A stretch of 47,194 nucleotides of DNA from Peribolospora baueri (GCA_029717555.1 JAMDHS010000125.1:1-47194); one strand, 5' to 3'; positions 1-47,194 are shown, counted from the stretch's first letter. The notes: generated from the letters alone by a model not told the origin. Numbers and translations: made by a program.

Positions 1-763
1 AGGAAGAGCGGGCGATGGAGAGCAAGGTGACCCCGAGAGTCGGACGGGGCCGCCTTTTTATGCTGTTTGCGACATTTGCGATGGACGTCTTACCCAAAGT
101 GACGTCGGTTGCGATCGGCAGCTGCTTAGCGGCCGCGGTGATCGCCAGTCGGGGCCTGGCACGTGAGTAGACGACCATGACGTCATTTCATTTGCGTCGA
201 TGATGAAAACAGACGTCGACCCGGCGTCGATGTGAGCAAGGTATGCAGATGGAACCTCCAATCTTCTGTCCTTCTCACTCACGCTTCACCCAGGCCGAAC
301 TCCCTGACGCAGTCAGGTCGGAGGGATGACGGACCCTGGCGGAAGCTGACGGTCCCTTGGCACGATCGACTGACCACATCGTCCTACCAACCTGACCGCC
401 ACACCAGGCGGGAGACGACTATCAGAATGGGTTCTCCCACAACCAACATCCATCCATCCATCCATACATACATCCATCGAACCCTCTCGTGGCCGCGTTC
501 CGTGTTCTAGAACACCGAAGCGCCGGATCGTCCGCCGTGCCCTTTTTTATTTCTTTTCCCTCATCTTTCCCCTTTGGCCCCTTGGCCTTTCGCCCTCTCC
601 GGTCGGTGCGCTCCGGCTCGCTCGCCCCGTCGTCCCTGTCCTGTCCTATCCTGTCCCGATCGTGATCGGGTTCGGTTCGGCACGCCTCGAAGAAGACGGA
701 CCCGTCATCGTCGTCGTCGTCGTGGCCGTTCCAATGCTGGTCCAGCTCGAAACGGATCCCGAG

Positions 764-1277
764 CTAGCTAGCTGCTCCAGCGGCGACCTCGTCATGACCG
801 CCGTCGTGAGCGGACATCTTGTTCAGCGACTTGGCCACGGACGCTTCGGCGTCCAGAAGAGCACAGAACACGGCCAACCGTATTGTTGAGACGAGGTGAC
901 GACAATTCCGTGAGATCCAAGGCCTGAGCCGAGCCGACGTCAGAGCAGAGTCATGGCTAGAGTCATCATGACTCGTGGTTCTCTTCGCTCGCCTCGCAGT
1001 CGTACTCTCGACTCTCATGCTGAACGTGGCACGGAATAAGCTATTGCTCCTGACACCCTCGAAGTAACTGAGGAGATGTCAGGCATGAACGAGTATGATG
1101 TCGTTCGAGTCCTGTACGAAGACCGGGACGTTGGACCTGCTGGCCAGTACCTTCCTTGTTGCCCAACACCCTAGCGTCGTTCGGGAGCTTCACTTGCATC
1201 CACGCGTAGCCGCCGTGATGCTGGACATTGGCTATCGAGACCGTAATCGGTTCCGAGTTGCCTAGTCCACTATTCTC
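764..1277 (-). pseudogene. 3' part of a decayed, unidentified gene interrupted by the kinase/Nudix segment
   Basis: Minus-strand frames read ENSGLGNSEPITVSIANVQHHGGYAWMQVKLPNDARVLGNK / SNVPVFVQDSNDII / LSYFEGVRSNSLFRATFS. The last frame runs directly into ORF 764..1018. Frameshifts are needed to join the pieces, and no family was recognised. Confidence 0.4.
1064..1277. repeat. Direct repeat copy 1 (~210 bp; partner at 4141..4350)
   Basis: GTAACTGAGGA...CCTAGTCCACTATTCTC aligns by eye to 4141..4350 with about 12 substitutions and 3 small indels (roughly 90% identity). Confidence 0.95.
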
Positions 1278-1485
1278 ACAAATCGCCCGGTGCGTTCGTT
1301 GACAGACAATCCGTCGCAGCTAGCCGCTTCTCTTGATGGCTCCGTCATTTCCGATACGCACACGGCCGCAGCCCCGGTTCTACCCTTGCCCTAACCCTAA
1401 CGTGATCATTCTTTCTTATGGCACGACTCGCTAGTCTACACACCGACAAGCCCCGTCTCTGGGACGATCCCGGCCGCATACGGAA

Positions 1486-2848
1486 CTAGATGCCAAAGCG
1501 AGACACGACGCGATAGACCTCGTCGCAGGTATCCTGGTACGATCCTGTATTGTCGACGACGAGGTCGGCAATGTCGTGGATCTTGTCCGCTCCGCGCGAG
1601 GTCTTGATCTCGTCTTTGGAGGCATCAAATGACTTGCCATCGGCCTCGGTGCGGGTCCGACGCAGCTCAAGGGGCGTGTCGAGGTAAACGACCAGGAGCT
1701 TGGCCGATGGGGATTGAAAGTCGTTTGAGGGCCGGCCGACGGCCGTGCACCCCAGCTTGCCGGGAACGCCATGGCCGATCAGCTCGCGTAAACGGCAAGT
1801 GAGCTTGTAGCAGTGCAAGCTCTCGAGCGTGATGACCTGGACCCACCGATGCCAGCGCGAGAAGCGGTCAAGTTCGTGCACGAGTTCCAAGGCCTGCTCA
1901 TTCTCGGACAGCTCGTAGATGTTGCATTCCAGCCGCGCGCCGGCTAACTCAAGCAGGTAGCCGATCTTGAGACGAAAGGCGCCTCCAGCCGTGGCGACAA
2001 AGGCCCTCGAAACAGTCTCCGTGGCCACCGTCGACTTCCCGCATTTCGAGAGGCCGCCAAAGGTCGGGCAGCAGCGCAGGTTGTGGAGTAAGGGTTTCCA
2101 AGAGTGGCCGGCACCGCACACACGCTGAATGGCCTCGGTGACTTTCGAGAGCGTCTCAATGAACGTTTCGCCATCCCCGCGCAGAATAACCTCTGTGTAG
2201 CGCCCAGCGATGACCTGCGCGTTCGAGAGCATCATCAAACAGCTTTTGATACCGGCGATTAATGGGAGGCACTGGTTCATACCGTCCCTCCTCCTCCAGG
2301 GACCACTCCACTGCATCTTTGATACGCCCAGCTCGGCGCAAAAGAAGACAGATGTGCTCGGCAGGAAAAGCTGTGCCCATGTCGGCGAGAATGCCGCCGA
2401 GTCGTTGCTCTGCCTCGCTCAAGTCAATCGAGTGGCGGAGGCCGATACGTGCCACACAGGCTGCCTCAAACATAAGGGAGGAGCGGTCGAGGATACTGCC
2501 GGGCAGCGACAAAGTTTGACCTCTGACCTCGATAGGTTTGGGGCGACTTTCTACCGTATTGAAAGCTTTAGCGGCTTCGTGGCGAGCCTGGCAGGCTCGC
2601 AGGGTTGTCTGAACGAACACTTCATCGCTCGCTCCACCCGTTAGAAATTCTCCTCCTTCGGCCTCGTCACCAAACCACCAAAGGGCGAGGGAGCCGTCAT
2701 TGATTATCCCATTCATCTCCTCATCGTAGAGATGGATGCCGCCGAAATGAGTCAGAGGCCATGAACGGGGAAAGAGGCTGAGGACAGTTTTCTTGTCAAT
2801 GTTGTCGGGGCTGGAAAGGGAGATAGTGAGGCGAGGGTGGTCAGACAT
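1486..2848 (-). pseudogene. Tandem (two-domain) NMP/thymidylate-kinase-like P-loop protein, split by a single frameshift near 2218
   Basis: ORF 2156..2980 from ATG 2848 has a degenerate P-loop (ISLSSPDNIDKKT) and an ILDRS motif like the thymidylate kinase DR motif. ORF 1486..2316 has an intact Walker A (GLSKCGKST), plus VVYLDTPLELRRTR and ADLVVDN. Removing one base from GAA CGC G CAG (2224-2215) gives one intronless ORF of ~453 aa. Confidence 0.7.
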
Positions 2849-3200
2849 GTCCGTGAAATGGATGTTTGGCTTCTTTGACGACGTCTGAAGGAGAGGGGAA
2901 GATGAAAGAGGCAGAGCCGGAGTTGATGTGGATGGGTGGCGCTTGCGTGGAAGAGTATCAAAAGGAGTGGGCTTGGGCAAAGATTGAGCAGCGAGTTACC
3001 TTGCCCTTCATATACGTGCCAGCAGCGACGGGAAGGACAAAGGTCGACTGTCAATCTATAATTGTGGGTCCCTTACCGCTATCGGTCAGAGCTGGTATTG
3101 TACAGCAATAGATAATCCTTTACGTACTCGATTACGACGGGTGTCGTCACTACAGTCAAGGCTCCAGGGCACGCCGAGCTCGCTCTTGTTCTTCAAGAAC

Positions 3201-3749
3201 TCACTCATACGTATCCTTGACGAGCTGGGTGGCCCTTCGAACCACCTCCTTGTCTTCCGGATACGTGACCTTGCCGAGCGCCTCATCGATCCCGAAGAAG
3301 TGTGCTTCAAAATCTTCATTTGCCATCTGCGTGCCCTCCTGGTGCTCGTGGCCTTCGACCTTTGCAACGAACCACCAGATCATCTTGACGTTGCGCTCCG
3401 CGATATGGCGGAGTGTGATCGCGAACGGTTCCGTAGCGTTCTCCACCGTCTCAGCAACGTCGCCGGTGACTGCATTAGCCGGGTGGGCACGCGTGTCCAT
3501 GCGGACGGGGAGGACGGAGGCATGGTATCCGGTCTCTTCGAACGTCTCGCGAAGCGCGGCCTCCAGGAGCGGCTCAGATAGATCCTTACGGCCTTTAGGG
3601 AGGTGCCACTCGTCCTTGACACGTTGGTGAAGGAGGCAAACTTGGATCTGCTTCTCTTGCGTGTTGCAGGGGCGAGGAAACTTGAAGAGTACGCAACCAG
3701 CGGAGATGACGAACTGCTCCGAGAAGTAGAGAGAGACGGGATGGACCAT
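3201..3749 (-). CDS. Nudix hydrolase, intronless, 182 aa
   Basis: Complete Nudix box GRKDLSEPLLEAALRETFEETGY (G-x5-E-x7-RE-U-x-EE-x-G-U), preceded by SAGCVLF and WHLPKG; intact ATG-to-stop. Confidence 0.92.
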   Translation of the reverse strand: MVHPVSLYFSEQFVISAGCVLFKFPRPCNTQEKQIQVCLLHQRVKDEWHLPKGRKDLSEPLLEAALRETFEETGYHASVLPVRMDTRAHPANAVTGDVAETVENATEPFAITLRHIAERNVKMIWWFVAKVEGHEHQEGTQMANEDFEAHFFGIDEALGKVTYPEDKEVVRRATQLVKDTYE

Positions 3750-4140
3750 CTTGTGAGGCTTTTGGAGACAACGTGAGAAGTGACAAGGATATGCGAGGAA
3801 GGTTGCATGTTCTTCGAGAGTGGCCGACAGAAGAAATGATAATAAATATTGCTTTTACTTATAAAATGCTAAATTTATGTTTATAGAAACTAAAATAAAT
3901 TTGTGTGCGGAGGCGCAAGAAGAAACTTTTTCCGGTCGCAGCGGAGAGACAATAGGAAGAAATCAGCCACTTCATCGACTTCCTCAAAGCCAGAGTTGTG
4001 AAATACCATGAAACCGTCACGCAGGTGGCGCTGGTTTCCGTCGGTGAGGAAGCCGAAGAACTACCCGGGCTGCACCTCGCGAACGCCCGCAATGTCCGTC
4101 ACAAGGTGGTCACCCTGCTTGCTGGCGTCGGCGGCGTGAG

Positions 4141-4350
4141 GTAACTGAGGAGGATGTCAGGCACGAGTATGATGTCGTTCGAGTCCTGTACGAAGACCGG
4201 GACGTTGGACCTGCTGGCCAATACCTTCCTTGTTGCCCGACACCCTAGCGTCGTTCGGGAGCTTGGCTTGCATCCACGCGTAGCCGTCTTGATGCTGGAC
4301 ATTGGGTGTCGAGACCGTAGTCGGTACCGAGTGCCTAGCCCACTACTCTC
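4141..4350. repeat. Direct repeat copy 2 (partner at 1064..1277)
   Basis: Same orientation and near-identical to 1064..1277. Confidence 0.95.
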
Positions 4351-4600
4351 GCCTGGTGCATTATATCCTTCACCATCTCGTCAAGTATGTCCCGGACGAG
4401 GACGACAACCTAGGCATTGGTCGCGTCACCGATGTCGCGATCCCTAGCAACCTCGAAGGAGAAGCTTTTCATCTCCTCGATGTTGCCCTCGGACAGCCAC
4501 GCTTCATCCTTGAGCTCCAGGGAGTTCCTGTCCACCTTCAGATACTCTCCTGTGACCTCCTTGGATCGGGGAATGAGTGCCAGACGACATAGTTGATCTA
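4141..4600 (-). pseudogene. 5' part of the decayed gene that overlaps the direct repeat
   Basis: Protein-like minus frame LALIPRSKEVTGEYLKVDRNSLELKDEAWLSEGNIEEMKSFSFEVARDRDIGDATNA*VVVLVRDILDEMVKDIMHQAR, with an in-frame TAG at 4410-4412, leads into the repeat. Confidence 0.4.
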
Positions 4601-5415
4601 ACTGGGAGTGGAATGAATTTCGTGGACCCGAGCTCACACAAGACATGACATGCCTTTGTTTCGTCCCTCCTACAAATGGATTAGTACGGGCTCGGCCATA
4701 CTTTGGCTAATCTGATGTCAGCTCTTTATCTCGCTTACGTAGCCGATCGAACCCACTTCATCGATCGATCGGTCGACGACGTCCATCCGTTCCATCCATC
4801 CTTCCCATCCTTTCGTCTTTCCTTCTCGCCAGCCCTCCACCGCCCGTCGTCCCGGACGGAACGGTTCGGCTGGCTGCCTCGCCCTTCCGGCCCTCATCGC
4901 GCCCGACTCGTCCGCTCCAGTGTATGGACCGGGCTACGGCCGAACGAATGAACGAACGAACGAAACGAACCGAACGAAACGCAAACGAAAACGGAACGAA
5001 ACGAAACGAATGCGATCGGATTACATCATGCACAACGGCACGCCCGCGGCTTAAGCGCGCCGCTCCGCTCATCGCCTCCGCGAGTGAGCCGTCGGTGCGA
5101 TCGACTTACATGCGACGGACTGCTGACGGGGGTCCAGACGAGCGAGTTGGCCCGATCAGGCTACGTTGTGTGCGTTGGACGGACGACGGACGACTTGGTG
5201 GGAAGCAAGACACGAGGGACGGACGAAATACAAGCTCGATCTCAGGAATCCGAACCTACTCCCTTTAGGGGCAAAGCAAGCTGACGAGACTCCATCGATA
5301 CGGGGAAAAGAGTACACGAGCGATCAGGAACACGGACGAGGAGATGGGTGGAAGGACGATAGAGGCGAAAGATGGGCGGCCGTGAGCTGACGGAGGCGCC
5401 GACGCGCGCGCTCGC

Positions 5416-8137
5416 TTACTGCGAGCGGGCGTTCTTGGCCAGCTGCTTGATCTTGACGATGATGGCTGAAAGGCGAGGGAGAGCATCGAATCCGTCAGGC
5501 GGGCGCGCTTCTTTTGACAAAGATAGAGGTCGAGGTGTGACCAGCCAGCGACTCACACTGCGGGTCGAGTCCTTGGTGGTAGACCTGCTCGCCGAGGCCA
5601 CCGCAGCCTGTTAGGATGGCAGAGCGTGTGAAGTGCGAACGAAAGGAGACAAAGCCGTGAGGCGAAAAAACGTCACCACCGTCCAAACGTGTTCGTTCGG
5701 TGACGAGCCAAAACCGCGCCTCAGCAAGCCGTCACCCACCCTCCCTGTTGGTCCCCATGTACCCGTACTTGGGCCTCAAGTCGCGCTGGAGGAGCCACGT
5801 GCCGAGCTTGGAACCGAGGCCGGTGCGTTGGTTGAGCGTCTCGACGACGAGGACGAAAGGAGATTGGCCGATCTTTTTGAGGGCCTGGGGGGGGAAGAAG
5901 AGATGGGAAGAAGCGGCATGAGAGACGACGGGCGGCAGGAAGGCGAGAGATGAGGAAAGGAAAGCATGCAAGGTGCGAGCGTTACTCTCGCCGCCTCACC
6001 TCTTCGTCGACGAGGTTGAGCGTGACCTTGTTGAGCAAGCCAACATCGTAGCCTTCCTTGCGAACGCGCTCGATGGCATCGAGGGAGCGGTACACGCTGT
6101 CTCCGAACGAGACCACCCATCCGTCCGTGCCGTTGCGCACCACCTCGTCCTTTCCGGGAACAAATTGGTAGTCTCCTTCGTACATCTTCGATCCGTCTTC
6201 CTTGAGGATCCAGGGAACCTTAGAACGAGTGGAGAAGACGAAGCGGAGGCCTTTGTCGAAGAAGACGCGGCGGATCACCGCCGTCATTTGGGCTGGATCA
6301 GCTGGGAAGTAGAGTGCCGTGGTGTGTCCGTCTTCGAGACCGTTGTCGGCGAACATGTTGTTGAGGCCGAAGTGGCACCTGTGACGCATGGGCGATCGAC
6401 AGCGAAAACCCAGGTCGGTCGGGAAGCCGAGGGAGCGTTCGGACGAGCCTCCAAACAAACGCTCTAAAGCAAGACCAGAAAATGTGGTTTCCACTCACGT
6501 GTTGTCGGCAATCTCGTCGATGCCAGCATGAGAAAAGTGGCAAAGGACGTTGACAAAGTTGAGACGGGCCATGGTGATCTCCGACACGCACATCTCGAGA
6601 AAGGCGGAAAAGGTGGAGAAGACGCCTGGGCGGGCGGTCGAAGAGAAAAAAAGAGGGTTGGCTGGGCTGAGCTGCCGCTCGCGTTTACCCCGTGCTGCCG
6701 TGTCCATGTCAGGCTTACCGAATTTGTCATGATCGAATCCAAAGCCAGCGGCGGCAGAGAAATTGCCACGCTCCATGACGCCGGACGAGACAAAGACCTC
6801 GGGATGCTTCTGGTGAATGACCTTGAGGCCGGTGGACCCTTCGAGGTCAGAGTCGATGACCATGACTTTGTCCTTGGCCTCCTGTTTGCCAAGCCCGTCG
6901 AGGACGGTAGAGACGGTCTCGCCAAAGACGACGCGGTTCGCGCCGACTTGCTTGGTGGACCCTTCGTAGAGGTATGGAAGCGAGGAGGGCTTGATGCTCT
7001 TGAGGATCTCGACGGCCTTGGTGTGGCCACGCTGCTCGAGGTACTTGATCGCCGTGTCGACGGGGATCACGTCGTGACCTTTGGGCGAACCTTCGAGGCC
7101 CTCGAGGCCGGGACACATGATGCGGTTGGAGATGACTGACAAGTCGCACGCACGCACGCATCGTAAGAAGAGCGGAGGTGTGAACAAGTGGAGGGGCGCT
7201 TTCCATCGAAAGCGCCCACGTCGGTCTCTCTCGCTAGAGGCGCGACTCACCAGCCGCGGGTCCCTGCGAAGAGACGCACTGGCTGATGGCGCCCCATAGG
7301 CTATCGATGTCTTCTCCATCGGCCTCGAACACCGTCAAGCCGTGTCCCTCGAGCGTTCGTTTGAGCTTGAACCCTTTGAGGTATTCGGACGGGTGACCGC
7401 TGCGGGAAAGCAAATCGAAAGCAAGGGAAAGAAATTGCATTCGTAGGTCAGACACGTAGATGATCGGTAGTGCGTGCGCGTGCGTGGGGTGCGGGGGCGG
7501 GGGGGGGGGGAAGCGGGGGAGAAACGGATACGGACGAGATGGTCACGTCGTTGTTGTCAATGAACAGCTTGACATTGAGCCCCTTGGCCACAGCGAGACG
7601 GGCCGCCTCGGCGTCATTGCCCTCCTGCTGACTGCCGTCCGAACCGAGCAAGAAGACAGCCTTGCCACGGTTAGCCATGGCGACGCCATTAACAAACGGC
7701 CACATGTGACCTAGCCTTCCCGAAGAGAATTTTACGCCGGGCGTTAGGCCGAGTTCTGGGTGGCCGGGAAGACGGGAATGGGCGGCGCGGTAGTTGAGCA
7801 GCTGCTCTGGTGGTAGATGGCCGTGGAGGGCCGAGAGGAGGTACTGCGTGGCGACGCGGTGTCCGGCCTCGTCAAAGAGGACGGGCACGTACTTGGAGGG
7901 CGATTTTGCCAAAAGGCCCATGAGAAGGGTGACTTCGGGCGCAGTGCCGTACGGCCCACCCGTATGGCCACTCAAGCCTCTGGCGGCGCCCGTGGCGGTG
8001 AAGGCGATGATGGCATCGCGAAAGACGCTGATGTTGGCGAGGATTGCCTTCTTCTGATCCTCGGCGAGCGGTCCTTGGGTCGGATCGAGCGGCACGGGCT
8101 TGTACTTGGAGAGGTCGATGGGGAATTGGGATGCCAT
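5416..8137 (-). CDS. Transketolase-family thiamine-diphosphate enzyme (divergent), ~639 aa; exons 8137-7536, 7399-7251, 7135-6719, 6625-6499, 6378-6000, 5884-5740, 5607-5557, 5465-5416
   Basis: ThDP-binding motif SDGSQQEG...DNN, plus SGHTGG, GHPE, SSGRLGH, DSDLEGSTG, GVMERGN and FSHAG. All seven introns are GT-AG and the exon total (1920 nt) is in frame. Confidence 0.9.
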
Positions 8138-8985
8138 GGTTCTGAAAAAGAGTTAAGGCGAAGCTCGTCTAGATGGACGAAAGGAAGGAAGGAGAAGGAA
8201 AGACGGCCGGGACGGTTTGGTTTGGCTCTCTTGTCTGATCACGATCGCCGGCGTCATGAGGTGATCGAGAGCGAAACGACTGTCGTCACCACGACGACGA
8301 ACGACGATCATCAGCACGGCTGGCCATCCACGATCACGTTTCCTTCTCTCGCAAACTCATCGACGTCCTTTCGGCGGGCGAAAGACGGTCGATCCAAGGT
8401 TTCTCTTGAGGCAACGACGTCATGAGAGGGAGGGTGCTGACGAGCTCCATCCGCCGGACGTTTTCTTTCTATACATATACAGGTAGATATATTTTCCGCC
8501 GCTTTCTGCGACGACTAGCGCCGGAAGATACGTCGAGCCGCTGGACCGTTCATCAAAGATTTCTGGACAAGGGTTACTTACCTATCTATCTATCAGACTC
8601 CTCGTCGTCTCGCTCTTTCACACTGACCCTCCGGTCCATTTCTCACCTGGCCTTGTCCCCAAGCGCATCTAGCGCCTCCTTCGCCGCTGACATACCATCT
8701 CATGCATGATCGATCCCCTCTTCTGGCGATCGCGGCCTGAGGGCCATCTCGGAAGAGGACGAGGATTGGTTCGCAAGGGCAGGATCGTGACGATAACGGT
8801 ACAAGATACAACCTGAGCTAGAGAGCGAGGGATGGTGGCACGATTAGGAGGGGGAGTGCAGTTGTAGACGAGATGACAGGAGGACCGATGGATTGTAGGC
8901 GTTGGGTTGGGGTGGCGACCAAGTCGTGAATGGATGGATGGGGTGACCGGTTCGTGGTGCCGTTGGCGGCGAAGAGGGGGACGCA

Positions 8986-9363
8986 TCACCATGAGTCGCC
9001 GTGGAGCCACTGTGGGCAGGAGTGAGACCGAAGGAAGCGAGGGACGACGGTCAGCGCCGACGACCAGGGGGCTCCGACGTGGGCTCCCTTGTCGAACCGA
9101 CACTTACCTCTGCCTTCTGAGCCTCGTTATCACGAGCCTGCATGAGCCCGTCGTGGGCCGTCTCGCCAGCGGGAGGGAGCTGCAGGAACGTTGGGATGGG
9201 GATGGGGATGGATGCGCATGGGACGAAGGGCATGAACGGCACCAGGTCAGTTTACGGCAGTGAGCGAGGCCTTGGAGGGCGGTGTGAGTGAACGCACAGG
9301 AGCAGCGACGGCAAAGCCGATGGCGAGGAGAGGGAGGAAGAAGAGGGAGAAGGAAAGCTTCAT
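8986..9363 (-). CDS. Small secreted peptide, 53 aa: MKLSFSLFFLPLLAIGFAVAAPLPPAGETAHDGLMQARDNEAQKAEWLHGDSW; exons 9363-9298, 9179-9108, 9009-8986
   Basis: ATG followed by a hydrophobic signal peptide ending AVAAP. Two phase-0 introns (GTGCGT..CTGAC..CAG and GTAAGT..GCTGAC..CAG), each with no AG between branch site and acceptor. TATA-like CATATA ~125 nt upstream. Confidence 0.72.
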
Positions 9364-9762
9364 GTCGAGTTTGGGCGTGGTGGGGAAGTTTTAGGATATG
9401 TGAGCGCTGGAAGAAGAGGCGAGCGAGGAGGAGAGCGCAGAAAGTAGGGGCCGGGGCAGGGAGCAAAGGGTTGACAGGGTGGCGGTATATGTAGGTGGGA
9501 GGGGGGCGAGGAACGGTAGGCGAGCTAGACTCGAAACCTGGTCAGGGCGGGGGTTGAGACAGCGGGGACAAAGATGAGGAGCCCCCCGGGACATGGCCAG
9601 GCGATGTCTGCGCATCAATGAGCGCGGAGGGATCAGTGAAGAGACAGAGCTGTGTCTGTCTCGTCTGGATGACGGAGTGACACAAAGAAACAGAAGAAAC
9701 AGAAAGATAGACAGACGCAACGCAACGGGCGGTGGTGCGACTTTTTTTCTTTTTTTTTTTTT

Positions 9763-9795
<33 letters not shown>

Positions 9796-10210
9796 TGTTG
9801 TCTTGTCTGGGCGCGCTCGACCTGGGCAGACGTGGCGCAACGCAACGCAACGCACTCCGTCCTCTCCGACCACCGCCTTTTGCCTTTGCCTCGTCCGACG
9901 GGGCGGCCGGGCCGGGCCAGGGCAGGGCTTGCTGTGCGACGCGAAGGGTTGCGCGCCGGCGAACCTGTGTATAACGCGGGACGATACGGAGATGGGAGAC
10001 GGAGACGATCGAGGGCCGACGGTGGGTAGTGAGTCGGTCGGTGCGCTGGCAAACACAGGGGAGCGAGGAGTGAGGGGCGGCCGATCGGATCGGACGGGAC
10101 CTGGCGTGGTGGTCCTTGCTGGGCTTGCCTCCTGACAGCGGCGCTTAGGACGGACGCCGGGATGGATATGGATGGATGGCCGGTAAGCGCAGCGCAGCGA
10201 CGGCGTGGCA

Positions 10211-12356: not shown

Positions 12357-12428
12357 GTGGTCATCGATTAGTGGTGAGATCGTTTCGTTGTGGCCGAAGA
12401 GACCTGGGTTCGATTCCCAGTGACCACA
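12357..12428 (+). tRNA. trnH-GUG: tRNA-His (anticodon GUG), intronless
   Basis: Acceptor stem GTGGTCA/TGACCAC, D-loop TAGTGG, anticodon loop TTGTGGC, T-arm CTGGGTTCGATTCCCAG. A T-run (Pol III terminator) starts at 12430. Confidence 0.95.
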
Positions 12429-13046
12429 CTTTTTTGCTTTTGTCGCGCCCCTTCCCCTATTTTTTATCTCTTTTATATAATACCCAAGGGTAAGTAATGA
12501 TCAATTCATCCCCCGAGCAAGCCATCTCATCGCTCTTAGGATTCCTCTCTGCGAGGTTACGCCGAGACCGGTGAATAACAACGGACGGAGGGACGGAGGG
12601 AGGGATGGGTCGCGATCGCAATAGGAATATATTCCAATCGTAAGCCAAAAAAAACTTGGGCGAACCGCCGTGCGAACCGAATGGACGAACGAGCGGCACG
12701 GCTGGTGGCCAGACGGGACACTGGGAGAGATAGAGAGAAGGAAGGGGGGGGGAAGTATGTATGTAAACGTGACCATGGGACAACGGGAAAAAAAAGGGAC
12801 AAAACAAGGAAAGGGGAAAGGAGGCGACAAAGGTCCTAAGACAGACAGACAGACAGACAGATTCCGGAGTTCGAAGGAGGCTATCGGTAGGCGTCAGGCG
12901 TCAGGCGGGCGGGCACTAGCAAAGGGGAAAAAGAGAGTGGACAGGGTAGCGAGCGGGAAAGGACGCGGAGGGAGAGAAAGGAGGAAGGGGGGGGAACTAA
13001 ACAAAAAAGAAAAAGTGTCCGCGTTCTTGTTCGAACCGATTCTGAA

Positions 13047-16000
13047 TCAGAACGGACTCGGCGCACCGGGCGGCTTTGGCGCCTGAGAAAGGTGAGAAGC
13101 GAAAAGAAATGTTTGGTGAGCAAGCCGACGGGACAGAGCGCGTCACGTCATGTCGGTGGGAGGAGGACTCGGACTCACCGCCGCTCCCGGTGGAAGCCTG
13201 CTCGCGCCTGACGAGGTGCTGCCATGTCCAAGTGTGCTGGGGGCGCCACCGCCACCGGTGTTGAACATGCCAGAGTGTCCGGCCTCGGAGCTGGACGGGG
13301 AGACGGGGGACTGGATGGACACGCCACCGCGGCTGGACCGCCTCGACTGGCGCTTGTTCCGCACCACCGTCCGGGCGCCTGGCATGGGCCCGTCGTCGGT
13401 CAGCGAGACGCCTCGGGCGAGCTGCGGGCCGTCTCGAGCGGGTCGCGCCTGGCTTGAGCTAACGAGGTGGTGAGAGCTGCTGGAAGACGCCGAGACAAGC
13501 GCCGGCGAACCGACCAAGATCTCCGGTTCGGCGCTGAATGCCTCGGCGTAGCTGAAAGGGAAAGAGAAAAGAAGAAAAGGGGCGAGGTGAGTGAGATTGG
13601 GATGCCCGAAAGGTGGTTGCGTCGACGCCGCTCGCTCGCTCGCTCACCTCGCATGCTGATCGGGCGGGCTCAGCTGAGGGTAGCTGTTCTCGGACGACAC
13701 GTGACCGTGACGAAGGTGGACGGAAGAGGACGCGGCGCCCAAGCCGTCGGACGTCCCCTCATCGCCGTCGTGCATGATCGGTTGCCTCTCGTGGGCGAAC
13801 GAGGCCCGCGCGTCGCTAGGATACTCGTACCTCGCCGAAGCAGCGACAGGGGGTGTGGCACTGTGGTCGCGCGACAAGGAGGCGGCGCTCGAGTTGGCCG
13901 TCATGCCCGTGCGCGAGTTGGGCGACAGGTCGCGCGAGCCCCCCGGCGGCGACGTCGGCGTATTCCGGGCTTGAGAAGCGTTGGGCGCGAGAGGAGCGGG
14001 AAGCTCGAGCAACGGCACCGAGTCGATACGGGACCTCGACGCGTGGCGGCCGCCGCCGCTGTGGTCGTCGTCGTAACCGGCAGGCGGAGCGGCGGCGGCG
14101 GCGAGTCCGCCTCGGGTGCCGAACTGGTCGGACGGGTTGGAGTGGTAAGTCTCCGAGGAGGAGACCATGCTGAACCGCGTGCTCTCGGCGCGGCGCGGGC
14201 TCTCGGAGCGGTGGACGACGTCGTAGGTCGAGTCGCGCGAGACCGTACCGGACTTCCACCTGCGCTCACGCTCAAACTCGGCCCATCGCTTCATGACGAT
14301 GTGACTCGAGTCAAACTCGCCCTCCTTGCCGTCGTGCGCGGCACCATCGTCGCCTTCGATCTTACGCGTCTGACCCCAGCTAAAGTCGTCAAAGTGCCAG
14401 AAGGCGTAGGTGGGGAGGACAAAGTTCTGAAGGGATAGAGAAGGGAGGTTAGCAACAGACGGAAAAATGACTGGCGGAGGGCACCGGACGGCTCACCCAG
14501 ATGGGAAGAGAAAGGAGGTAGATGAACATCCATCCGACGTAAGCGATCCTGCGCGACGTGATGACGATCAGCAATCCTGGCAGGCCGAGGATGATGGCGA
14601 GGAGGATGAGAGGGATGACGGGCGTGACGGCGGTGGGGATGATGGCGAGAATGATGAGGTAGAGGGTGAACGAGATGGCGGCGGGAAGGACGAGCGTGCC
14701 GGCGAGCTCCATGCCGACGACGAACTGCATCGAGAAGCAGAACGTGCCGCAGAGGTCGCGCACGAAGAGGAGCTCGGCGAGGTTGTGCACCGTCGAGTTG
14801 ATCCATCGTCGGCGTTGAGAGAGGAGGACGCGGAACGTGTCCGGCACGACCGTCTTGCACACCGCGCCCGGCACGAAAACCATCTTGCGCTTGGGGAACG
14901 TCTTGAGCATGAGCGTCGTCAAGTATCGGTCCTCACCGAGCAGGAGCAGGTTTTTCTTGTGCAGCGTATCCACGACGTTTTCGGAGTAGTGTTCGACGAT
15001 ATCTGGGTTCGCCAAAATGGGCACCCAATAGCCAAGCGCGCCTTTAGGAGCCTTGATACGGTACGCGCTAAAGCAGCCGGGCAAACAGGTGACACCTCCG
15101 AAGCAGGCCTCAAAGGCTTTGGTCATGTGGTGCGAGGTGTAGTACTCGAAGACTACGAGGGGTAGGTTGATGGAGGTGGGTGAACGGAAGAATAGATGTG
15201 AGCGGGTCACGCGCAAGAAAAGAAAAGAAAAGAAAGAGAAAGACAAGGAAAAAAGGTAAAAAAAGGTAAAAGAGGAAAAGAAAAAAGAGAAAAAGAGAAA
15301 AAGAAAGAAGAAAAAGAAAAGAAAAGAAAAGAAAGAGAAAGAGAAAGACAAGGAAAAAAGGTAAAAAAAGGTAAAAGAGAAAAAGGAAAAAGGACAAAAA
15401 GAGAAAAAGAGAAAGAGAAAGAAGAAAAAGAAAAGAAAAGAAAAAGAAAAAGATCCGAAAACTCACCCTGAATCATAGTAACCCAAGTCTCCGCCTTATT
15501 CGCAATCTTCGTCTCTCCACACAACCCCATAATCTCCGGGTCCTGCACCATCGCCGACGTCATCCTACTCAACGAATCTGGAAAGATCTTCGTATCCGCG
15601 TCCACCATGAGCATCACCTCGTAAACGTCTGGTGATACGCCCGTGACACGCCATATCGAATTGAAGAATTCGTATTCGAATGTCGTCATGCGTTCGTCAA
15701 ACATGACTTTTTGCAAGAAGGCCATGATCAGCACTTGTGAGTCTCGTTTGCCGCGGTTGCCTGGCTTGGCGTCGTGCGCTTCTAGAGGGTTGCCGCATTT
15801 GGCAACGAGGACCATGGGAACGCGTTGCTGTTTGCTCGGCTCGACGGTATCGTCGTCATAGTCGTAGAAGCCGGCATACACCTTGGCCATGTTGTGTCGC
15901 TTGTGCCCGTCGGCGATCGCCACGTAGCTGTGGCCCTCCACCTCCTCAGCAGGCGTGATGAGGCCCTTCATCATGCTCAAACAAATATCCGGGGTGCTCA

Positions 16001-18482
16001 TGTCGTTGCCAGCGCCCTTGACGATGCCGTCACAGATGACGAGGATCAGCTTGTGGCTGTTCGGGTAGTCCGTCGTGGCCAGCGAGTCGAGCGTCGTGCG
16101 AAGGCCCTCGAGCGACTCGGAGTAAGCGGTGACGAGGCACATGGTGTGCGCCAGCGGAAAGTTGAAAGGCTGCCAGTCCGGCGCGGGCTGGGGGACGACA
16201 CCGCGAGCGAGCGGGAAGGGACAAGCCTTACCGGTGCCGTCGGAGATGGACGATCGCCTGGACCCGTCGCTAATGTCCTTGCCCGGGTAGGCCAACGAGG
16301 TGGAGCTGCGCGAGCCGCGGAGCATGGGCGAGCCGGGCGGCGTGCGACCCTCGAGTCCGGCGGCGAGCATCGCCTTGGGATTGCCGTACACGCTGAGCGC
16401 CGCCTGACTGCGCCGATCGGGCGTGGCGAGACCGGGGGCGTAGGCGCTGACGGGGCGGAGGCCGCCGCCGGCGGCGCCACCGACCTTACCCAATCCGTGG
16501 CCGCCAAAAGTGGAGAAACGAGAAGTGGTGGGGAAGAAGGTGCTCTTCCTCGACTTGTGGAGTACGTTGGGCCGATAGCTGCCGGGGGCGGGGCGGTAGA
16601 TGTCACCGGACCACTGTTCGATCTCGGCCATGCGCTTCATGCGCTCCTCGTACGTCTCGTTCTTGTAGTTGCCTATGCGCCAGCCGATGAACCAGCCAAA
16701 GATGACGGCCATGGCGAAGCGGATGGCGACGACGCCGACGATGAAGACGAGGGAGACGTAGAGGACAATGTCGGAGGCGACGCAGCCGATCGTGTTGGTG
16801 TCGATGAAACCGACCTTGACGACGTCGTCCAGACACGCCGCGTACTTGCTCAAGCCCTTGCGCATGACGGCGGCGGTGATGTCGCGGCTCTGCCACGACG
16901 CGTTTCCGCTCTTCAGCTCGTCGAACCAGGCCGGGTACCTGACCTGGGTGGGGTCGAGCCAGTTGAGGAGGCTCAGGTCGAGCACGCTGCTCTGCCAGAC
17001 GGCGAGGTTGCGCGTGCTGTTGACGTCGCTCCATTGGAAGTAGATCTGGCTCACGTTCGTCGCCCGTCCAAAGTTGGCAAAGCTGGACTTTTGCTGTTTC
17101 GAGACGTGGCACAGCACGTTGTCGGTATAACCGGTCAGGTTAGGCTGGGTGTTGCCAGACTGGCTGAAGAGGTTGCAGGGGAAGAACCAGCTCAGATCGC
17201 CGGTGGGCGTCTTGGGGATCTGAGAGCCCTTGGCGGCGGTGATGATGCCCTTGCAGTTGCCTTGGGTGTTCTGGAACATGAAGCTGCCGTCGAGACCGCC
17301 TGTGGACCAGGGCTCAGAGTAGAGGGGGTTGCTGGCGTTGATGCCGGGGGCAGCGGGATGAATGTAGTGCGTCATGTCGTAGTTGTAACCGTGGAAGATC
17401 ATGGAGCCCGAGTTGACGGAGCCGGTGCGGTATCGAACGGGGGGGCGACCGCAGACGGACTTTGTGAAGCCGAAGGTGAGGAAACCGACGCCGGTCATGA
17501 GGACGCCGATGAGGGCCAACAGACCCATCTTTTCTCGCCAGGCGCGCTGCTGTTCTGGGGTTCGAATGCCAAAACACTTCAAGATGGGCGCAGGACAACA
17601 AAAAGTCAAGACATAGCAGTAGATCATCCACGCGTCCAACGGCCCACCGCCGTAGGCCATCCGCTCGTTCTTGCCGGAGAAAGCGGCGCCCTTGCCCTCA
17701 TCGTCCGGGCCGACGATGCTCGCGCTGGCGCTCGTTCTCTTCCTGCGCAGGCTCACGCCGCGCTTGAGAAAGTTGAGGCCCGTCTCGGCAATGTCCTCGT
17801 CGCGGGCGAGGATGCTCCTGCCCCTTCGGAGGCCCCCCCCGCCGGGGATGGCGGCGACACCGGCGGGGGCGGTCATGACGCCTTCGGGGCCCATGACGCC
17901 CATGCCGCTCACACCCCCACCGGGACCGGCGATGCCGGCGAAACCGGCTTCCGGAGGGTTGGCACCGTGTTGGGGGAGGTGGCCGGTGGTGGAGGGGAGG
18001 AAGCCACCGTGGTGCTGGTTCTCCATCTGGGCGGCGTGGTTGCGATAGTACCATTGACGGTGGGTGGGGTCGATGCGCTCCCTGTCGGGTCGGACGAGGG
18101 ACTTTTTCCTACGGAACTGGGCGCCGCCGATGCCCTGACCTGGGGCGGCGCCGGAGAAGCCGCTGGTGTCATCGAGGGTGGGGAGTTGTGCGGTGCCGAG
18201 GGCGGTGGAGGAGCTGGAGGGGTCCCAGGTGTCGGTTCGACCGGTGAGCTTGACGGTCGAGGCGGACTGTTGGTCGAAGGGCGGTCGAGTGGGCTCCTGG
18301 AAAGAGACCTGGGGAGGGATGGGGGTACGAGAGAAAGCGGCGCGGGCGGAAGAAGACGCGGGCTGGGAGGGCGGTGGTGCGTGAGAGGGCCTTGGTTGGT
18401 TGTTCATGTTGCTGTCGATGGAGAGCGGGGGCAGCGGGTGGGGTTGTCGGGGTCCGCGGTAATGGGGATTAGGAGGGTCCAT
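13047..18482 (-). CDS. CHS3: Chitin synthase class IV (yeast Chs3-type), ~1619 aa; exons 18482-15467, 15152-14497, 14426-13648, 13551-13179, 13082-13047
   Basis: [49 protein letters not shown], catalytic LGEDRYL and SQRRRW, DDFSWG. No myosin motor domain. Exon total (4860 nt) is in frame. The last two exons are less certain. Confidence 0.95.
15214..15452. repeat. A/G-rich polypurine tract with an internal ~105-bp tandem duplication, inside chitin synthase intron 1
   Basis: GAGAAAGACAAGGAAAAAAGGTAAAAAAAGGTAAAAGAG occurs at ~15236 and ~15341. Confidence 0.85.
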
Positions 18483-19867
18483 GGCGTCGGAAGCGCGGCG
18501 GGTGACAAGGTCGGGTGGGGTCAGGTGGTAGGGATCATGGGTCGATGGGGGAGGAAGGGGGGGGGCGAAAGAAGGAGCGTTGGAGACCGAAGGGGGGGGG
18601 CTACAAAAGAGCGGGTGCGTTGGTCGGGGTGGCCGTCGGAGAGGTAGCGGGCCTACGCAGACGGGGTCAAGGCTAGGTTGGTGAGAGGGAGAGAGGAGAC
18701 GACGTGCGTGAGTGATCCAACTGATCCGAGGTTGTGTCGTGTCGTCGGCGTCGGCGAGAAAGAGAACGCGATGGTACACTCTGAAGGAGCGCGTTGTACG
18801 ATGGGCGTCGTGGTGGAGACAAGAGGAGCAAGCTGGCGCGTACGCACCTTTACGTATGTGCCGTGTCCTTGGCGCGTGCCGCGTGGTATGCTATCGTATG
18901 CCGTCCTGTCTGTCCGCCCCGAGCGAGCGCGCACTGAGGCTGGTGGGTGGAGACGGTGGGGAACGGATGGATGGATGGAGGGATGGAGGGATGGATGGAA
19001 AGAAGAAACGACGAGTCGGGGCGCCTGTTTTCTTTTTTTGTCGTTTTCCGTCCTGTGCTGTGTGCTCTCTCGGCGGTGGATGGTGGTCGTCGCCGTCGCC
19101 GTCGGAGGAGGCGCGGGTCAGGGATAGGGATGGGCGACGGGTGTGGTTGGCGACGGCGGCGAGGATCGGCGTCGGCGTCGGCGTCGGCGTCGGAATCGGG
19201 TTAGTTGGTGGTGGTCGATGTGGACGATGGCGATGGCGATGGCTTCGACTTGGATTTAGACCACGCCGGATGGATGGCCGAAGACGAACGAGACAGACAG
19301 GAGACGCGGCCACCGTCAGTCAGTCCGCGCGTCGGCCAGGCTGTCCGTCGAGAGTACTCCACTGCAGTCAGTCCAGCCAGTGCCACTCCCGCCGTCCGCG
19401 TCGGGCAGGCAGGTAGGCGGGCAACGGCAGCAGCTGCGGCAACGGCTGTGACGGAGGGTTTGGCCTTCCTTAGGGGGGAGAAACAGAAACAGGCGCGCCG
19501 TTCGGATGCCCCTTTGGGGCGGGCGTGCGTCGATTCGACGGCGACAAGGACGGAGGCGAGGCGAGCGATCCCAAAACACGCGCAGCAATCATTATAATAA
19601 TCATCATAATAAAGCGGCCATAAGTAAGTATGGCGCGCCCACCGCCGCCTAACGCCGGTTTCAAATTTCATTCCTCCAGGCCCAAATAAGACGCTCGCTC
19701 GCTCGGCACGGCCACCCGGCCAGCCAGAGCTCGAGGAGAAAAAAGAATCATCATCGATTGATCGATGGCACGCACGCCGCACATCCCTCCCACGTGCACA
19801 CCCGTACACCCACACGCATACCTCCTCCGTCATCACTGAAGAAAGAACAAACGAAAGAAAGGACGCA

Positions 19868-40331: not shown

Positions 40332-41131
40332 GAGGCACTCGAGAGGATAGGAGAGCGCGCCGGGACGGCAAGAAGAGGGCTGAAGAAGGCGAAGACGAAA
40401 GAAGCAAAAGCGAGTGCGAGTTAGAAGCAGTTGCGAGCGGAAGGAGGAGGGGGTGAAGGTCGGGTGGAAGAAGGAAAGAGGGTTGGAAGGAATGGCGGCC
40501 GACGCTTTTGACTGTCGTCACTTCAACGCACGCGCGTTGGGCCCCGGAGTCGGAGGCGGCCGCCAGCCGGAGACCGGACCCACGCCAAGCCGGTCGCTGC
40601 CGGGTCGGAAGGAAGGAAGGAAGAAGAGGGACTCGCTCGTTCACCATCGTCTGACTTCACCGCTCAAGCTACAGCCAGACCAGGCGTCGACCACGAACCA
40701 CGAACAACGGAGCTGCTGGCTGCGTCGCTGTGCCGCCCGCCTCTCCCCGCATCGGGTCCCCGCTCCATCTCCTCCACCTTCGCTTCCCCGACGACGTGGT
40801 GGGCGAGCGGGCGCCGATCGGACTCACTCGCCCTGATCTCCAGACTATGGCTACAGACGCCCCCGGATTCGCCCGCCCTGTCTCGCATCTCTCTCCTCGA
40901 GCCTACGCCCCCCACCCCGGGAACCTCCGCCGCTCGAACACACCCGCTGGTTCCGCTCTCGTGTCGGTGGAGACGAGCGCTCAGCGCTTGTTACTCTCCA
41001 TGACGAACGAAAAAAAAAAGAAAGCATCGAAACGTGCCTTTCTCTGGCAATGGTGCGACTGATTGACGGGTCTACTACTACGTGGCGGATTCTTGAACGA
41101 ATGTCCCGCAAACGAAAACCGGCTTCCCTCC

Positions 41132-47142: not shown

Positions 47143-47194
<52 letters not shown>
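47143..47194. repeat. Poly-T run inside an intron at the window end
   Basis: About 52 T immediately after the intron donor; probably where the assembly breaks. Confidence 0.85.

What the first reader, a model, noticed from the sequence alone, without database searches (positions are those of the whole stretch)
764..4600. A ~2.9-kb two-gene cassette inserted into a dead gene, with a ~210-bp duplication on both sides
Seen: direct repeats at 1064-1277 and 4141-4350 (roughly 90% identical) bracket two intronless genes in a region lacking the microsatellites and introns found elsewhere in the window. The repeat is not LTR-like. On the minus strand, protein-like sequence runs into copy 2 from ~4600 and runs out of copy 1 into ORF 764..1018, so the repeat looks like the shared middle of one decayed gene. 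Inference: this geometry is what single-crossover integration of a circular DNA carrying a homologous patch would leave, or an insertion with a very long target duplication. It may record a transposase-free route for moving nucleotide-metabolism cargo into a fungal genome. Recombination between the repeats could also excise the cassette.
Basis: partly seen in the sequence, partly recalled or inferred. Interest (0 to 1): 0.8.

Follow-up and report, generated by a model that had tools for sequence, protein, structure and literature searches.

The report
Break-repair patchwork with intein fragment
A 220-base duplicate flanking two fungal genes is most likely a scar of DNA break repair that also trapped a piece of a PRP8 intein and a mitochondrial-like scrap, rather than a gene cassette that integrated from a circle into a dead gene.

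Summary
The repeat is real. Copy 1 is 1064-1293 and copy 2 is 4141-4359, with 13 substitutions and 4 indels between them and only two copies in the window. It brackets a Nudix gene and a P-loop kinase-like gene that is frameshifted in this genome.

- The only flank with homologs lies inside the bracket, abutting copy 2.
- That flank (4135->3980, minus strand) encodes the last ~50 residues of a PRP8 intein plus the first five C-extein residues (…FHN|SGFEE).
- It carries two in-frame stops, and no PRP8 gene surrounds it.
- The stretch beyond copy 1 (1063->764) has no homolog, scores non-coding, and diverges fast between two sister organisms.

Nearby lie an AT-rich, mitochondrial-like patch (3817-3918) and telomere repeats (1389-1400). 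A sister organism, about 97% identical, has the same architecture, so no empty site was found. One indel there is shared by both copies, which indicates gene conversion.

Best reading (0.45): copy 2 is a captured copy of copy 1, joined with the intein and mitochondrial-like fragments at one repaired break, and the genes were residents. Insertion of the genes with a long target duplication (0.15) and circle integration (0.05) remain possible. An outgroup genome would decide.

The parts
1064..1293 (.). Repeat copy 1 (230 nt). Relative to copy 2 it carries a 1-nt deletion and 4-nt, 1-nt and 7-nt insertions. It is probably the native (donor) copy under the best reading.
   Evidence: no flank similarity beyond it
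4141..4359 (.). Repeat copy 2 (219 nt). Its left edge lies 3-6 nt from the start of detectable intein homology. It is probably a captured copy under the best reading.
3980..4135 (-). Relic of the 3' end of a PRP8 intein. It holds splicing blocks F and G (…FFGFLTDGNQRHLRDGFMVFHN), then S G F E E of the Prp8 C-extein, with the junction between 3995 and 3994. One in-frame TAG lies at 4061-4063 inside it; an in-frame TGA lies just upstream at 4157-4159. tblastn alignments of 5 of 9 proteins start further upstream (4150-4207). It is not part of a PRP8 gene.
   Evidence: Exhaustive phmmer gave 9 hits at E<=1e-3, 7 with Prp8/Hint/homing-endonuclease Pfam families. tblastn hit here with 9 of 9. hmmsearch E 2e-16. 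hhalign 98.1%, E 1e-13. 58 bits, reached by 0 of 300 shuffles.
3817..3918 (.). AT-rich patch, the only one in the window that is not a microsatellite. It is mitochondrial-DNA-like by inference. It also supplies TATA-like words about 100 nt upstream of the Nudix start.
   Evidence: GC < 0.27. In one search the organism-B runs show very deep extra contigs from 3840 on (bin depth 236 and 720 against about 70-100), with a tRNA-3'-end-like loose end just before 3840.
3201..3749 (-). Nudix hydrolase gene, 182 aa, intact, MutT1/Ap4A-hydrolase-like.
   Evidence: Pfam E 7e-10; NCBIfam MutT1 1.6e-14; PDB 5gg5 1.5e-9; host-like codon score
1486..2848 (-). Gene for an orphan N-terminal domain (~210 aa) plus a P-loop nucleotide-kinase-like C-terminal domain (Walker A GGLSKCGKST). 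It is frameshifted at about 2218 in this genome. A second copy at ~84% identity exists elsewhere in the same organism.
   Evidence: frameshift; no relatives of the N half; dephospho-CoA-kinase / AAA_18 / DNMK-like C half; second copy, records 3 and 10
1383..1400 (+). Interstitial telomere-type repeat, CCCTTG CCCTAA CCCTAA, 90 nt from the inner edge of copy 1. On the minus strand it follows the 3' end of the P-loop gene as TTAGGG repeats.
   Evidence: the only such run in the window; about 0.006 exact 12-mers expected by chance on both strands
4410..4646 (-). 78-aa ORF upstream of copy 2. Its codon usage is coding-like, but it has no homolog and no family. Unknown, possibly dead.
764..1018 (-). 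It is not supported as coding.

Best explanation
The repeat is a by-product of end-joining repair of a chromosome break. It is not the footprint of a gene cassette.

Most likely sequence of events: the two genes and copy 1 were already in place. A break then occurred between the Nudix promoter (about 3816) and 4360. It was sealed with a chain of three or four captured DNA pieces:
- a mitochondrial-like scrap (3817-3918);
- about 60 nt of unknown origin;
- about 160-175 nt from the 3' end of a PRP8 intein, with 15 nt of extein (4135/4153->3980);
- a 219-nt copy of the nearby segment 1064-1293, which lies next to a fragile interstitial telomere repeat.

This happened before organisms A and B split. 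Since then the two copies have exchanged sequence by gene conversion.

Shown: the repeat, its sharp edges, the intein fragment abutting copy 2, the AT-rich patch, the same architecture in B, and the shared indel in B.
Inferred: the mitochondrial origin of the patch, the direction of copying (copy 1 to copy 2), and that all pieces arrived in one event.
For: (1) The intein fragment is robust and ectopic. There are 9 library hits, all bearing the PRP8-intein C-terminal motif. Pfam finds the PrP8 U6-snRNA domain plus Hint in 6 of 9, and at least one intein or Prp8 family in 7 of 9. tblastn hits this place with 9 of 9 and finds no other Prp8 or intein signal of that strength (weaker hits at 27.6-27.9 kb, E 9e-5 and 0.07, and at 5.0-5.1 kb, E 0.56). 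hmmsearch gives E 2e-16, hhalign E 1e-13, and 0 of 300 shuffles reach the score.

(2) Detectable intein homology starts at 4135. The edge of copy 2 is at 4138/4141, as expected for two fillers joined end to end.

(3) The AT-rich patch lies about 60 nt further on. In organism B it matches contigs 8-30 times deeper than nuclear ones, next to a tRNA-like end.

(4) Piece sizes (about 100, 170 and 220 nt) and the chain of 3-4 pieces fit what is measured at yeast breaks (PMC11372161, passages read):
- NUMTs of 22-492 bp;
- nuclear-genome pieces about twice as long, often from telomeric or repetitive regions;
- nearly 4000 of about 33,000 insertions built from 2-4 fragments, including mixtures of mitochondrial, Ty and nuclear DNA.

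(5) The cassette genes have host-like codon usage and GC, so nothing marks them as incomers.

(6) The depth over the repeats in organism A is not raised, so this is not a dispersed element.

(7) A 5-nt insertion at 4197 sits on the contig that both copies of organism B share. It shows exchange between the copies.
Against: No outgroup or empty site was available, so neither the direction of copying nor the resident status of the genes is shown.

The telomere repeat 90 nt from the inner edge of copy 1 is explained here only as a fragile donor site or as chance (about 2%). It would be explained more directly if copy 1 were the captured piece, or if both inner edges were junctions of one large insertion.

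The mitochondrial origin rests on depth and a 30-nt loose end in organism B only. Organism A's runs show no deep contig there.

Weak signs suggest that intein-like sequence may continue 12-70 nt into the repeat. PPQLP aligns with the invariant PTLLP, and the phmmer alignment to P0003 reaches 4207. The anchored extension scores are reached by only 2-7 of 60 shuffles for 3 of 7 proteins. If real, copy 2 would be in native context and copy 1 the copy.

One frame is open, with a single stop, across the right edge of copy 2 into ORF 4410-4646.
Confidence: 0.45

Rival explanations
1. Same kind of event in the opposite direction. Copy 1 is the captured piece, inserted together with about 95 nt of unknown DNA and telomerase-added TTAGGG repeats at a break between 1063 and 1401. 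Copy 2 is native and part of a longer, decayed intein-derived stretch. The genes are residents.
For: The telomere repeat sits 90 nt from copy 1 and is oriented as an addition onto the gene-side end. There are weak hints that intein-like sequence runs into copy 2. One frame is open across the right edge of copy 2. Both flanks of copy 1 look non-coding.
Against: Extension of the intein homology into the repeat is not significant. The N-terminal and middle intein models give nothing for pieces A-D (28-236 of 300 shuffles reach the scores). For 4 of 7 proteins the extension score is ordinary. If the intein stops at about 4135-4153, its coincidence with the repeat edge goes unexplained (about 1-2% by chance).
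Confidence: 0.2
2. The whole 2.85-kb interior was captured in one event at a staggered or replicative break, which duplicated 220 nt of target. The interior comprises unknown DNA, telomere repeats, the P-loop gene, the Nudix gene, the mitochondrial-like patch and the intein fragment.
For: Both inner edges of the repeat lie next to filler-type DNA: telomere repeats on one side, the intein and AT-rich patch on the other. One event would explain both. The P-loop gene has a second copy elsewhere. A relative of the kinase half lies next to a Nudix relative on 1 of 80 metagenome loci (L017), so the pair may travel or work together.
Against: No empty site was found. A 220-nt target duplication around a 2.85-kb insert is unusual for end joining, where 45-300 bp is preferred (PMC11372161). 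The second copy is about 16% diverged, too old to be the donor if the repeat divergence of about 6% dates the event. The outer flanks do not form a recognisable gene. The genes have host-like composition.
Confidence: 0.15
3. Campbell-type integration. A circular DNA carrying the genes and a patch homologous to the repeat recombined once with the chromosomal copy.
For: Direct repeats flanking an insert are the textbook product of this event. Homologous recombination over about 200 bp is efficient in fungi (general knowledge). Circle-based spread of a DNA segment is documented in wine yeast (PMC3053389, abstract read). The de Bruijn contigs are compatible with a circle plus an empty site.
Against: The circle would have needed its own copy of the repeat in an unrelated context, so a prior duplication is required anyway. 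There is no homology beyond the repeat on any flank pair. The outer flanks share no homolog. The yeast case cited used non-homologous junctions. The depth of the interior equals that of the flanks (about 98 against 97-102).
Confidence: 0.05
4. Relic of a free-standing, intein-derived homing element of the WHO/HO type. Such an element duplicates part of its target each time it homes.
For: An intein-derived fragment lies inside a bracket of direct repeats, which is the geometry of WHO elements at FBA1 (PMC7282813, section 10 read).
Against: Only the last ~50 intein residues are present. No endonuclease or N-terminal Hint signal was found. The five extein residues point to a copy of the PRP8 gene itself, not a free-standing gene. 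The repeat is not shown to be the 3' end of a working gene. The fragment abuts the repeat with no room for the rest of an endonuclease ORF.
Confidence: 0.03
5. Assembly artefact: a single repeat in the chromosome, with the interior wrongly threaded in.
For: No contig crosses the 58-nt identical core.
Against: Each repeat half with its private variants is tied to its flank with 0 differences. Two runs of organism A and two of organism B give the same four junction contigs at single-copy depth.
Confidence: 0.03

Closest known systems
Complex captured-fragment insertions at double-strand breaks (NUMTs mixed with nuclear-genome pieces) in Saccharomyces cerevisiae, PMC11372161
   Same: Pieces of about 100-220 nt from different sources are joined head to tail. 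An AT-rich organelle-like piece is present. A nuclear donor lies next to telomere-type repeats. No transposase or recombinase is needed.
   Different: This is a fixed, old, natural event in another fungus, inferred from sequence alone. One piece is a local copy that creates a 3-kb direct repeat, and another is a fragment of an intein. The empty site is unknown.
PRP8 intein at the site between …WEKA and SGFEES… of Prp8 (PMC1508164; PMC5784728)
   Same: The C-terminal splicing blocks (…GF.VDGNQRFLR…HN), followed by S G F E E, are about 44-56% identical to library inteins.
   Different: The piece is not inside PRP8. It has no N-extein, no N-terminal Hint blocks and no LAGLIDADG domain. It has two stops and is a dead fragment. 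Butler et al. state that no PRP8 paralogs exist in the genomes they surveyed (passage read).
Campbell-type / ends-in single-crossover integration, and eccDNA-mediated spread of the Z. bailii region in wine yeast (PMC3053389)
   Same: An insert bracketed by direct repeats, with no transposase.
   Different: No circle, no empty site and no homology beyond the repeat. The yeast case has no flanking homology at all.
WHO homing elements / HO (PMC7282813)
   Same: Intein-related sequence lies between direct repeats of neighbouring DNA.
   Different: No endonuclease gene, no zinc finger and no identifiable target gene. The extein residues betray an origin from PRP8 itself.

Membership tests
Campbell-type integration of a circle into a gene | Direct repeats of the homology patch flank the insert | tested here: met
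Campbell-type integration of a circle into a gene | The two outer flanks plus one repeat copy form one gene (common homolog) | tested here: not met
   No homolog or family was found for 4410-4646 or 767-1078. The stretch 871-1050 scores non-coding. A-B divergence there is fast and rich in indels. The only homolog-bearing piece lies on the inner side of copy 2.
Campbell-type integration of a circle into a gene | An empty site with a single repeat copy in a relative, or a circle junction | tested here: inconclusive
   The only relative found (organism B, runs X3 and X4) has both copies and the interior. The 1063->4141 'joint' is 30 nt at a contig end and reflects the likeness of the copies, not a deletion. 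Contigs cannot show rare forms.
LTR retrotransposon / TRIM / solo LTR pair | TG…CA termini, a short target duplication, PBS/PPT, gag-pol or remnants | tested here: not met
   The repeat starts GTAAC… and ends …GGTGC. The flanking pentamers differ, and no TGG primer site adjoins it (sequence read). The interior encodes Nudix and a kinase-like protein.
Dispersed high-copy element | Many copies in the genome | tested here: not met
   The summed contig depth over both copies in organism A is not above that of the neighbours (135-159 and 98-119). The same table did reveal the 84% paralog of the P-loop gene by a doubled depth.
PRP8 intein (functional) | C-terminal blocks F/G ending in HN followed by a nucleophile (S) of the extein | tested here: met
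PRP8 intein (functional) | N-terminal splicing blocks starting with Cys, preceded by the Prp8 N-extein | tested here: not met
   The N-terminal model scores -1.9 to +0.6. Scores are reached by 26-236 of 300 shuffles, and one copy-1 piece gave no alignment at all. There is no extein hit in the window.
PRP8 intein (functional) | Open reading frame embedded in frame within PRP8 | tested here: not met
   An in-frame TAG lies inside the fragment and a TGA just upstream. After SGFEE the sequence is unrelated to Prp8.
Complex fragment capture at a break (NHEJ) | Several short pieces of demonstrably different origin joined end to end | tested here: inconclusive
   The intein origin is shown and the local donor of the repeat is shown. 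The mitochondrial origin of 3817-3918 is only inferred. About 60 nt between the pieces is unassigned.
Complex fragment capture at a break (NHEJ) | A pre-insertion allele lacking the pieces | not testable with these tools
   No genome is held for this window. Only one related organism is in the runs.
WHO-like homing element | An intein-related endonuclease gene (or pseudogene) next to a duplicated 3' fragment of its target gene | tested here: not met
   No LAGLIDADG or middle-domain signal. Pfam finds none on the pieces.

The most novel reading that the evidence does not exclude
The break that seeded this patchwork was made off-target by the homing endonuclease of a PRP8 intein. The intein 3' end with 15 nt of extein was copied or trapped during its repair. 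The fragment would then be the first footprint of ectopic intein-endonuclease action in a fungal nuclear genome. It would also be a fossil of an intein that organism A's PRP8 may since have lost, because no copy at 80% identity or more shows in A's contigs.
Probability: 0.05. Interest if true: 0.75.

Novelty: new member of a known kind. Interest (0 to 1): 0.38.

Why it matters
The finding had been read as a transposase-free route for moving gene cargo into a fungal genome. The evidence points instead to an ordinary but unusually legible break-repair scar. A short local duplicate, an organelle-like scrap, telomere repeats and a fragment of a selfish protein-splicing element sit together at one locus.

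The intein piece is the unusual part. I found no report of PRP8-intein DNA outside PRP8. That statement rests on three full-text searches and on passages of PMC1508164, PMC5784728 and PMC1635734. The last of these calls ectopic intein movement 'very rare'. The fragment dates intein presence in this lineage to before the A/B split.

It is also a caution for annotation. Direct repeats around genes need an empty-site allele before they are called a cassette.

Tried and rejected
- No whole genome is held, so genome-wide copy counts rest on contig depth only.
- No RNA holder is listed among the sequencing runs, so nothing can be said about expression.
- Rfam finds no family in 1-6000 at E<=1. RNA folds of copy 2 are ordinary on both strands, z -0.37 and +0.18. 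An RNA element is therefore not supported.
- Pfam and NCBIfam find nothing on the flank pieces, except a sub-threshold Mug62 hit (E 0.21) on 767-1078.
- Word-based homolog searches found nothing for ORF 4410-4646 among longer proteins, for the N half of the P-loop gene at 273-872 aa, or for the read-through P0001 among longer proteins. These searches need shared 5-residue words, so each blank is weak evidence.
- tblastn of all pieces against the window finds no further paralogy.
- My by-eye match of MS|CVSSGPR…PRSKEVTG to the intein N-terminal block, and of DEMVKDIMHQARVVG to the LARSLGF motif, was rejected. hhalign gives nothing, and the N-terminal and middle models are within shuffles.
- The frameshift-tolerant extension of intein homology into the repeat is inconclusive. 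The real score is reached by 2, 3 and 7 of 60 shuffles for P0005, P0007 and P0003 (4, 13 and 13 of 60 real decoys), and by 13-60 of 60 shuffles for the other four proteins.
- The resemblance of SYFEGV at copy 1's outer edge to SGFEE(V) is at chance level.
- The joints 516->4944 and 729->9476 (22 nt on the shorter side) lie in low-complexity DNA and were ignored. The joint 1063->4141 in organism B is not an empty site.
- Atlas look-alikes for the N half score 0.83 or less, so there is no lead.
- Earlier findings of this scan returned nothing in 4 look-ups.
- Metagenome loci with Nudix relatives (80 loci) contain no repeat, no intein piece and no N-half relative.


Full report
OBSERVATION. The direct repeat exists. 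The repeat finder reports a 175-nt core (1084-1258 / 4158-4332, 93%). Alignments with flanks place the limits at 1064(1061)-1293 and 4141(4138)-4359. The copies differ by 13 substitutions (9 transitions, 4 transversions) and four indels of 1, 4, 1 and 7 nt. It is the only long non-tandem repeat in the window. None of the four flank pairs shows similarity beyond it (scores reached by 87-257 of 300 shuffles). No tandem array lies between 479 and 4781. GC is like the surroundings except for one AT-rich patch.

WHAT LIES BETWEEN THE COPIES. There are two minus-strand genes.
- The first is an intact 182-aa Nudix hydrolase at 3201-3749. Support: Pfam E 7e-10, NCBIfam MutT1 1.6e-14, PDB 5gg5 1.5e-9.
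- The second runs 2848->1486 and combines an orphan N-terminal half with a P-loop nucleotide-kinase-like C-terminal half.
  - The N half has no relatives, and atlas scores are 0.83 or less.
  - The C half resembles dephospho-CoA kinase (PDB 4zo4, E 0.07) and atlas clusters carrying AAA_18/DNMK/CoaE at 0.92-0.94.
  - In this genome the gene is broken. It stops after 230 residues. Leaving out the one base that organism B lacks at 2218 gives 453 residues.
Both genes score as host-like in a codon model trained on 4184 codons of nine window ORFs with family hits.

RELATIVES AND ASSEMBLY. No genome is held. Four public runs hold the stretch: X1 and X2 (organism A, probably the source, 0.97-0.98 of the words) and X3 and X4 (organism B, 0.43-0.45). 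All results below come from laying their contigs on 1-10000.
- In A, four contigs tie left flank to copy 1, copy 1 to the genes, the genes to copy 2, and copy 2 to the right flank, each with 0 differences. Every contig breaks at the 58-nt identical core, so the order is not independently proven.
- A holds a second copy of 1482-2852 at about 84% identity elsewhere (records 3 and 10, doubled depth).
- The depth over the repeats is not raised, so they are not a dispersed family.
- B has the same parts. The left flank runs to 1063 plus 30 nt of repeat; the interior covers 1162-3707 and 1314-3868; further contigs cover 3840-4170 and 4236-9736. No empty site was found.
- In B, two 'in' contigs end 30 nt into the repeat and two 'out' contigs start about 95 nt in. 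A 130-nt contig at about 1.5-fold depth lies between them and carries a 5-nt insertion at 4197 that neither A copy has. The copies are therefore identical there in B and have exchanged sequence (gene conversion) since the A/B split.
- A-B divergence is 5.6 substitutions and 4.0 gap letters per 100 nt in 514-1063, against 2.3 and 1.3 in 1162-3707.

THE FLANKS. Codon scoring shows minus-strand coding-like signal at 4441-4590 (the 78-aa ORF), in parts of the repeat, and, unexpectedly, at 3931-4140, which is inside the bracket. The stretch 871-1050 beyond copy 1 scores non-coding.

I read 4342->3893 through its two stops with X (P0001) and scored it against 1.84 billion representatives.
- Nine proteins reach E<=1e-3, the best at 1e-6.
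- Six of nine carry the PrP8 U6-snRNA-binding domain interrupted by a Hint domain, five of nine carry a homing-endonuclease domain, and seven of nine carry at least one of these.
- The other two are short fragments with the same C-terminal motif.
- All nine hit the window only at 4207-3950, E 8e-11 to 2e-7.
- A profile of the nine gives E 2e-16 for 4135->3971.
- hhalign gives 98.1% and E 1e-13.
- A model of the C-terminal part alone gives 58 bits, reached by 0 of 300 shuffles.

The window reads …FFGFLTDGNQRHLRDGFMVFHN|SGFEE. That is intein blocks F and G, the terminal HN, and the first five residues of the Prp8 C-extein. After this the sequence is unrelated to Prp8. There is no other Prp8 signal in the window. 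This is therefore an ectopic, dead fragment of a PRP8 gene that carried an intein.

The upstream pieces (4646->4338 and the repeat in all frames) and the flanks of copy 1 do not match the N-terminal or middle parts of the intein. A frameshift-tolerant anchored extension into the repeat is not significant. Detectable intein homology thus begins at 4135, or at 4153 in five of nine tblastn alignments. That is within -6 to +15 nt of the repeat edge at 4138/4141.

OTHER PATCHES. The stretch 3817-3918 is the only AT-rich stretch in the window that is not a microsatellite. In organism B's runs, contigs of very high depth match from 3840 on (bin means 236 and 720 against 70-100). They are preceded by a loose end that looks like the 3' end of a tRNA. 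The four-fold difference between two samples of one organism suggests mitochondrial DNA. This is an inference.

At 1383-1400 lies CCCTTG CCCTAA CCCTAA, the only telomere-type run in the window. It sits 90 nt from the inner edge of copy 1.

INTERPRETATION. It fails its own test, because the outer flanks share no homolog and the recognisable coding remnant is on the inner side of copy 2.

The locus looks like a patchwork left by end joining. In yeast, breaks capture 22-492-bp mitochondrial pieces and somewhat longer nuclear pieces, often from telomeric or repetitive regions. About 4000 of 33,000 insertions consist of two to four fragments of mixed origin (PMC11372161, passages read). The chain of AT-rich patch (about 100 nt), about 60 nt of unknown DNA, intein fragment (about 160-175 nt) and repeat copy 2 (219 nt) fits this in size and construction. 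It also explains why the repeat edge coincides with the intein edge. The donor, copy 1, lies next to telomere repeats.

I give this reading 0.45. I give 0.20 to the mirror image, in which copy 1 plus telomere repeats were captured and copy 2 is native. Together that puts about 0.65 on 'one copy is a captured filler and the genes were residents'.

A one-event insertion of the whole interior with a 220-nt target duplication would explain filler-type DNA at both inner edges. It is mechanistically less usual and gets 0.15. Campbell integration gets 0.05, because it needs a prior copy of the repeat in a foreign context. A WHO-like homing relic gets 0.03 (PMC7282813, section 10). Misassembly gets 0.03.

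COMPARISON WITH THE LITERATURE. I found no report of PRP8-intein DNA outside PRP8, in three full-text searches.
- Butler et al. state there are no PRP8 paralogs in the genomes they surveyed and mention ectopic endonuclease cleavage only as a hypothetical cost (PMC1508164, passages).
- Goodwin et al. call ectopic intein movement very rare (PMC1635734, passages).
- Green et al. list no such case in the passages I searched (PMC5784728).
I did not read these papers in full, nor their supplements.

VERDICT. The cassette-in-a-dead-gene reading is largely not supported. The locus is best seen as an old break-repair scar that contains a new curiosity, an ectopic PRP8-intein fragment. An outgroup genome would settle which piece moved.

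Noticed in passing
window 2218 (gene 1486-2848, minus strand): The P-loop gene is frameshifted in organism A, and the source-run contigs agree with the window. Organism B lacks the extra base. At 12 listed positions A's second copy and B's ortholog share a letter against the window, so the window copy appears to be decaying.
   Followed up: partly
elsewhere in organism A (not in the window); matches window 1482-2852: There is a second copy of the P-loop gene at about 84% identity. Its similarity ends at the limits of the coding region. Organism B's contigs show no such copy at 80% or more.
   Followed up: partly
L017:5-352 and 433-879: On one 1.2-kb soil metagenome contig, a relative of the kinase-like half (31% identity, E 4e-12) lies 80 nt upstream of a Nudix relative (46% identity) on the same strand. 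The pair may be a functional module. It was seen in 1 of 80 loci.
   Followed up: partly
window 3817-3918: The AT-rich patch carries TATA-like words about 100-130 nt upstream of the Nudix start codon. Captured DNA may now serve as that gene's promoter.
   Followed up: no
window 295-411: Organism B has 15 other letters in place of 115 nt here. It is an indel polymorphism in the fast-evolving left flank.
   Followed up: no
window 14452-18890 (minus strand): A chitin synthase gene (Chitin_synth_2, CHS4 domain) is split into two ORFs around a 240-nt AG-rich tandem array at 15215-15453. The array probably lies in an intron.
   Followed up: no
window 12357-12429: A tRNA-His (GTG) gene, the only tRNA in the window.
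   Followed up: no
window 5982-7319 (minus strand); 35810-36775 (plus); 38322-40656 (minus); 21383-22489 (minus): Neighbouring genes are a transketolase-like protein, a ClpB/Hsp104-type AAA_2 ATPase, a carnitine acyltransferase (two ORFs, probably with an intron) and a fungal-specific transcription factor.
   Followed up: no
window 47143-47194: The window ends in a run of 52 T.
   Followed up: no
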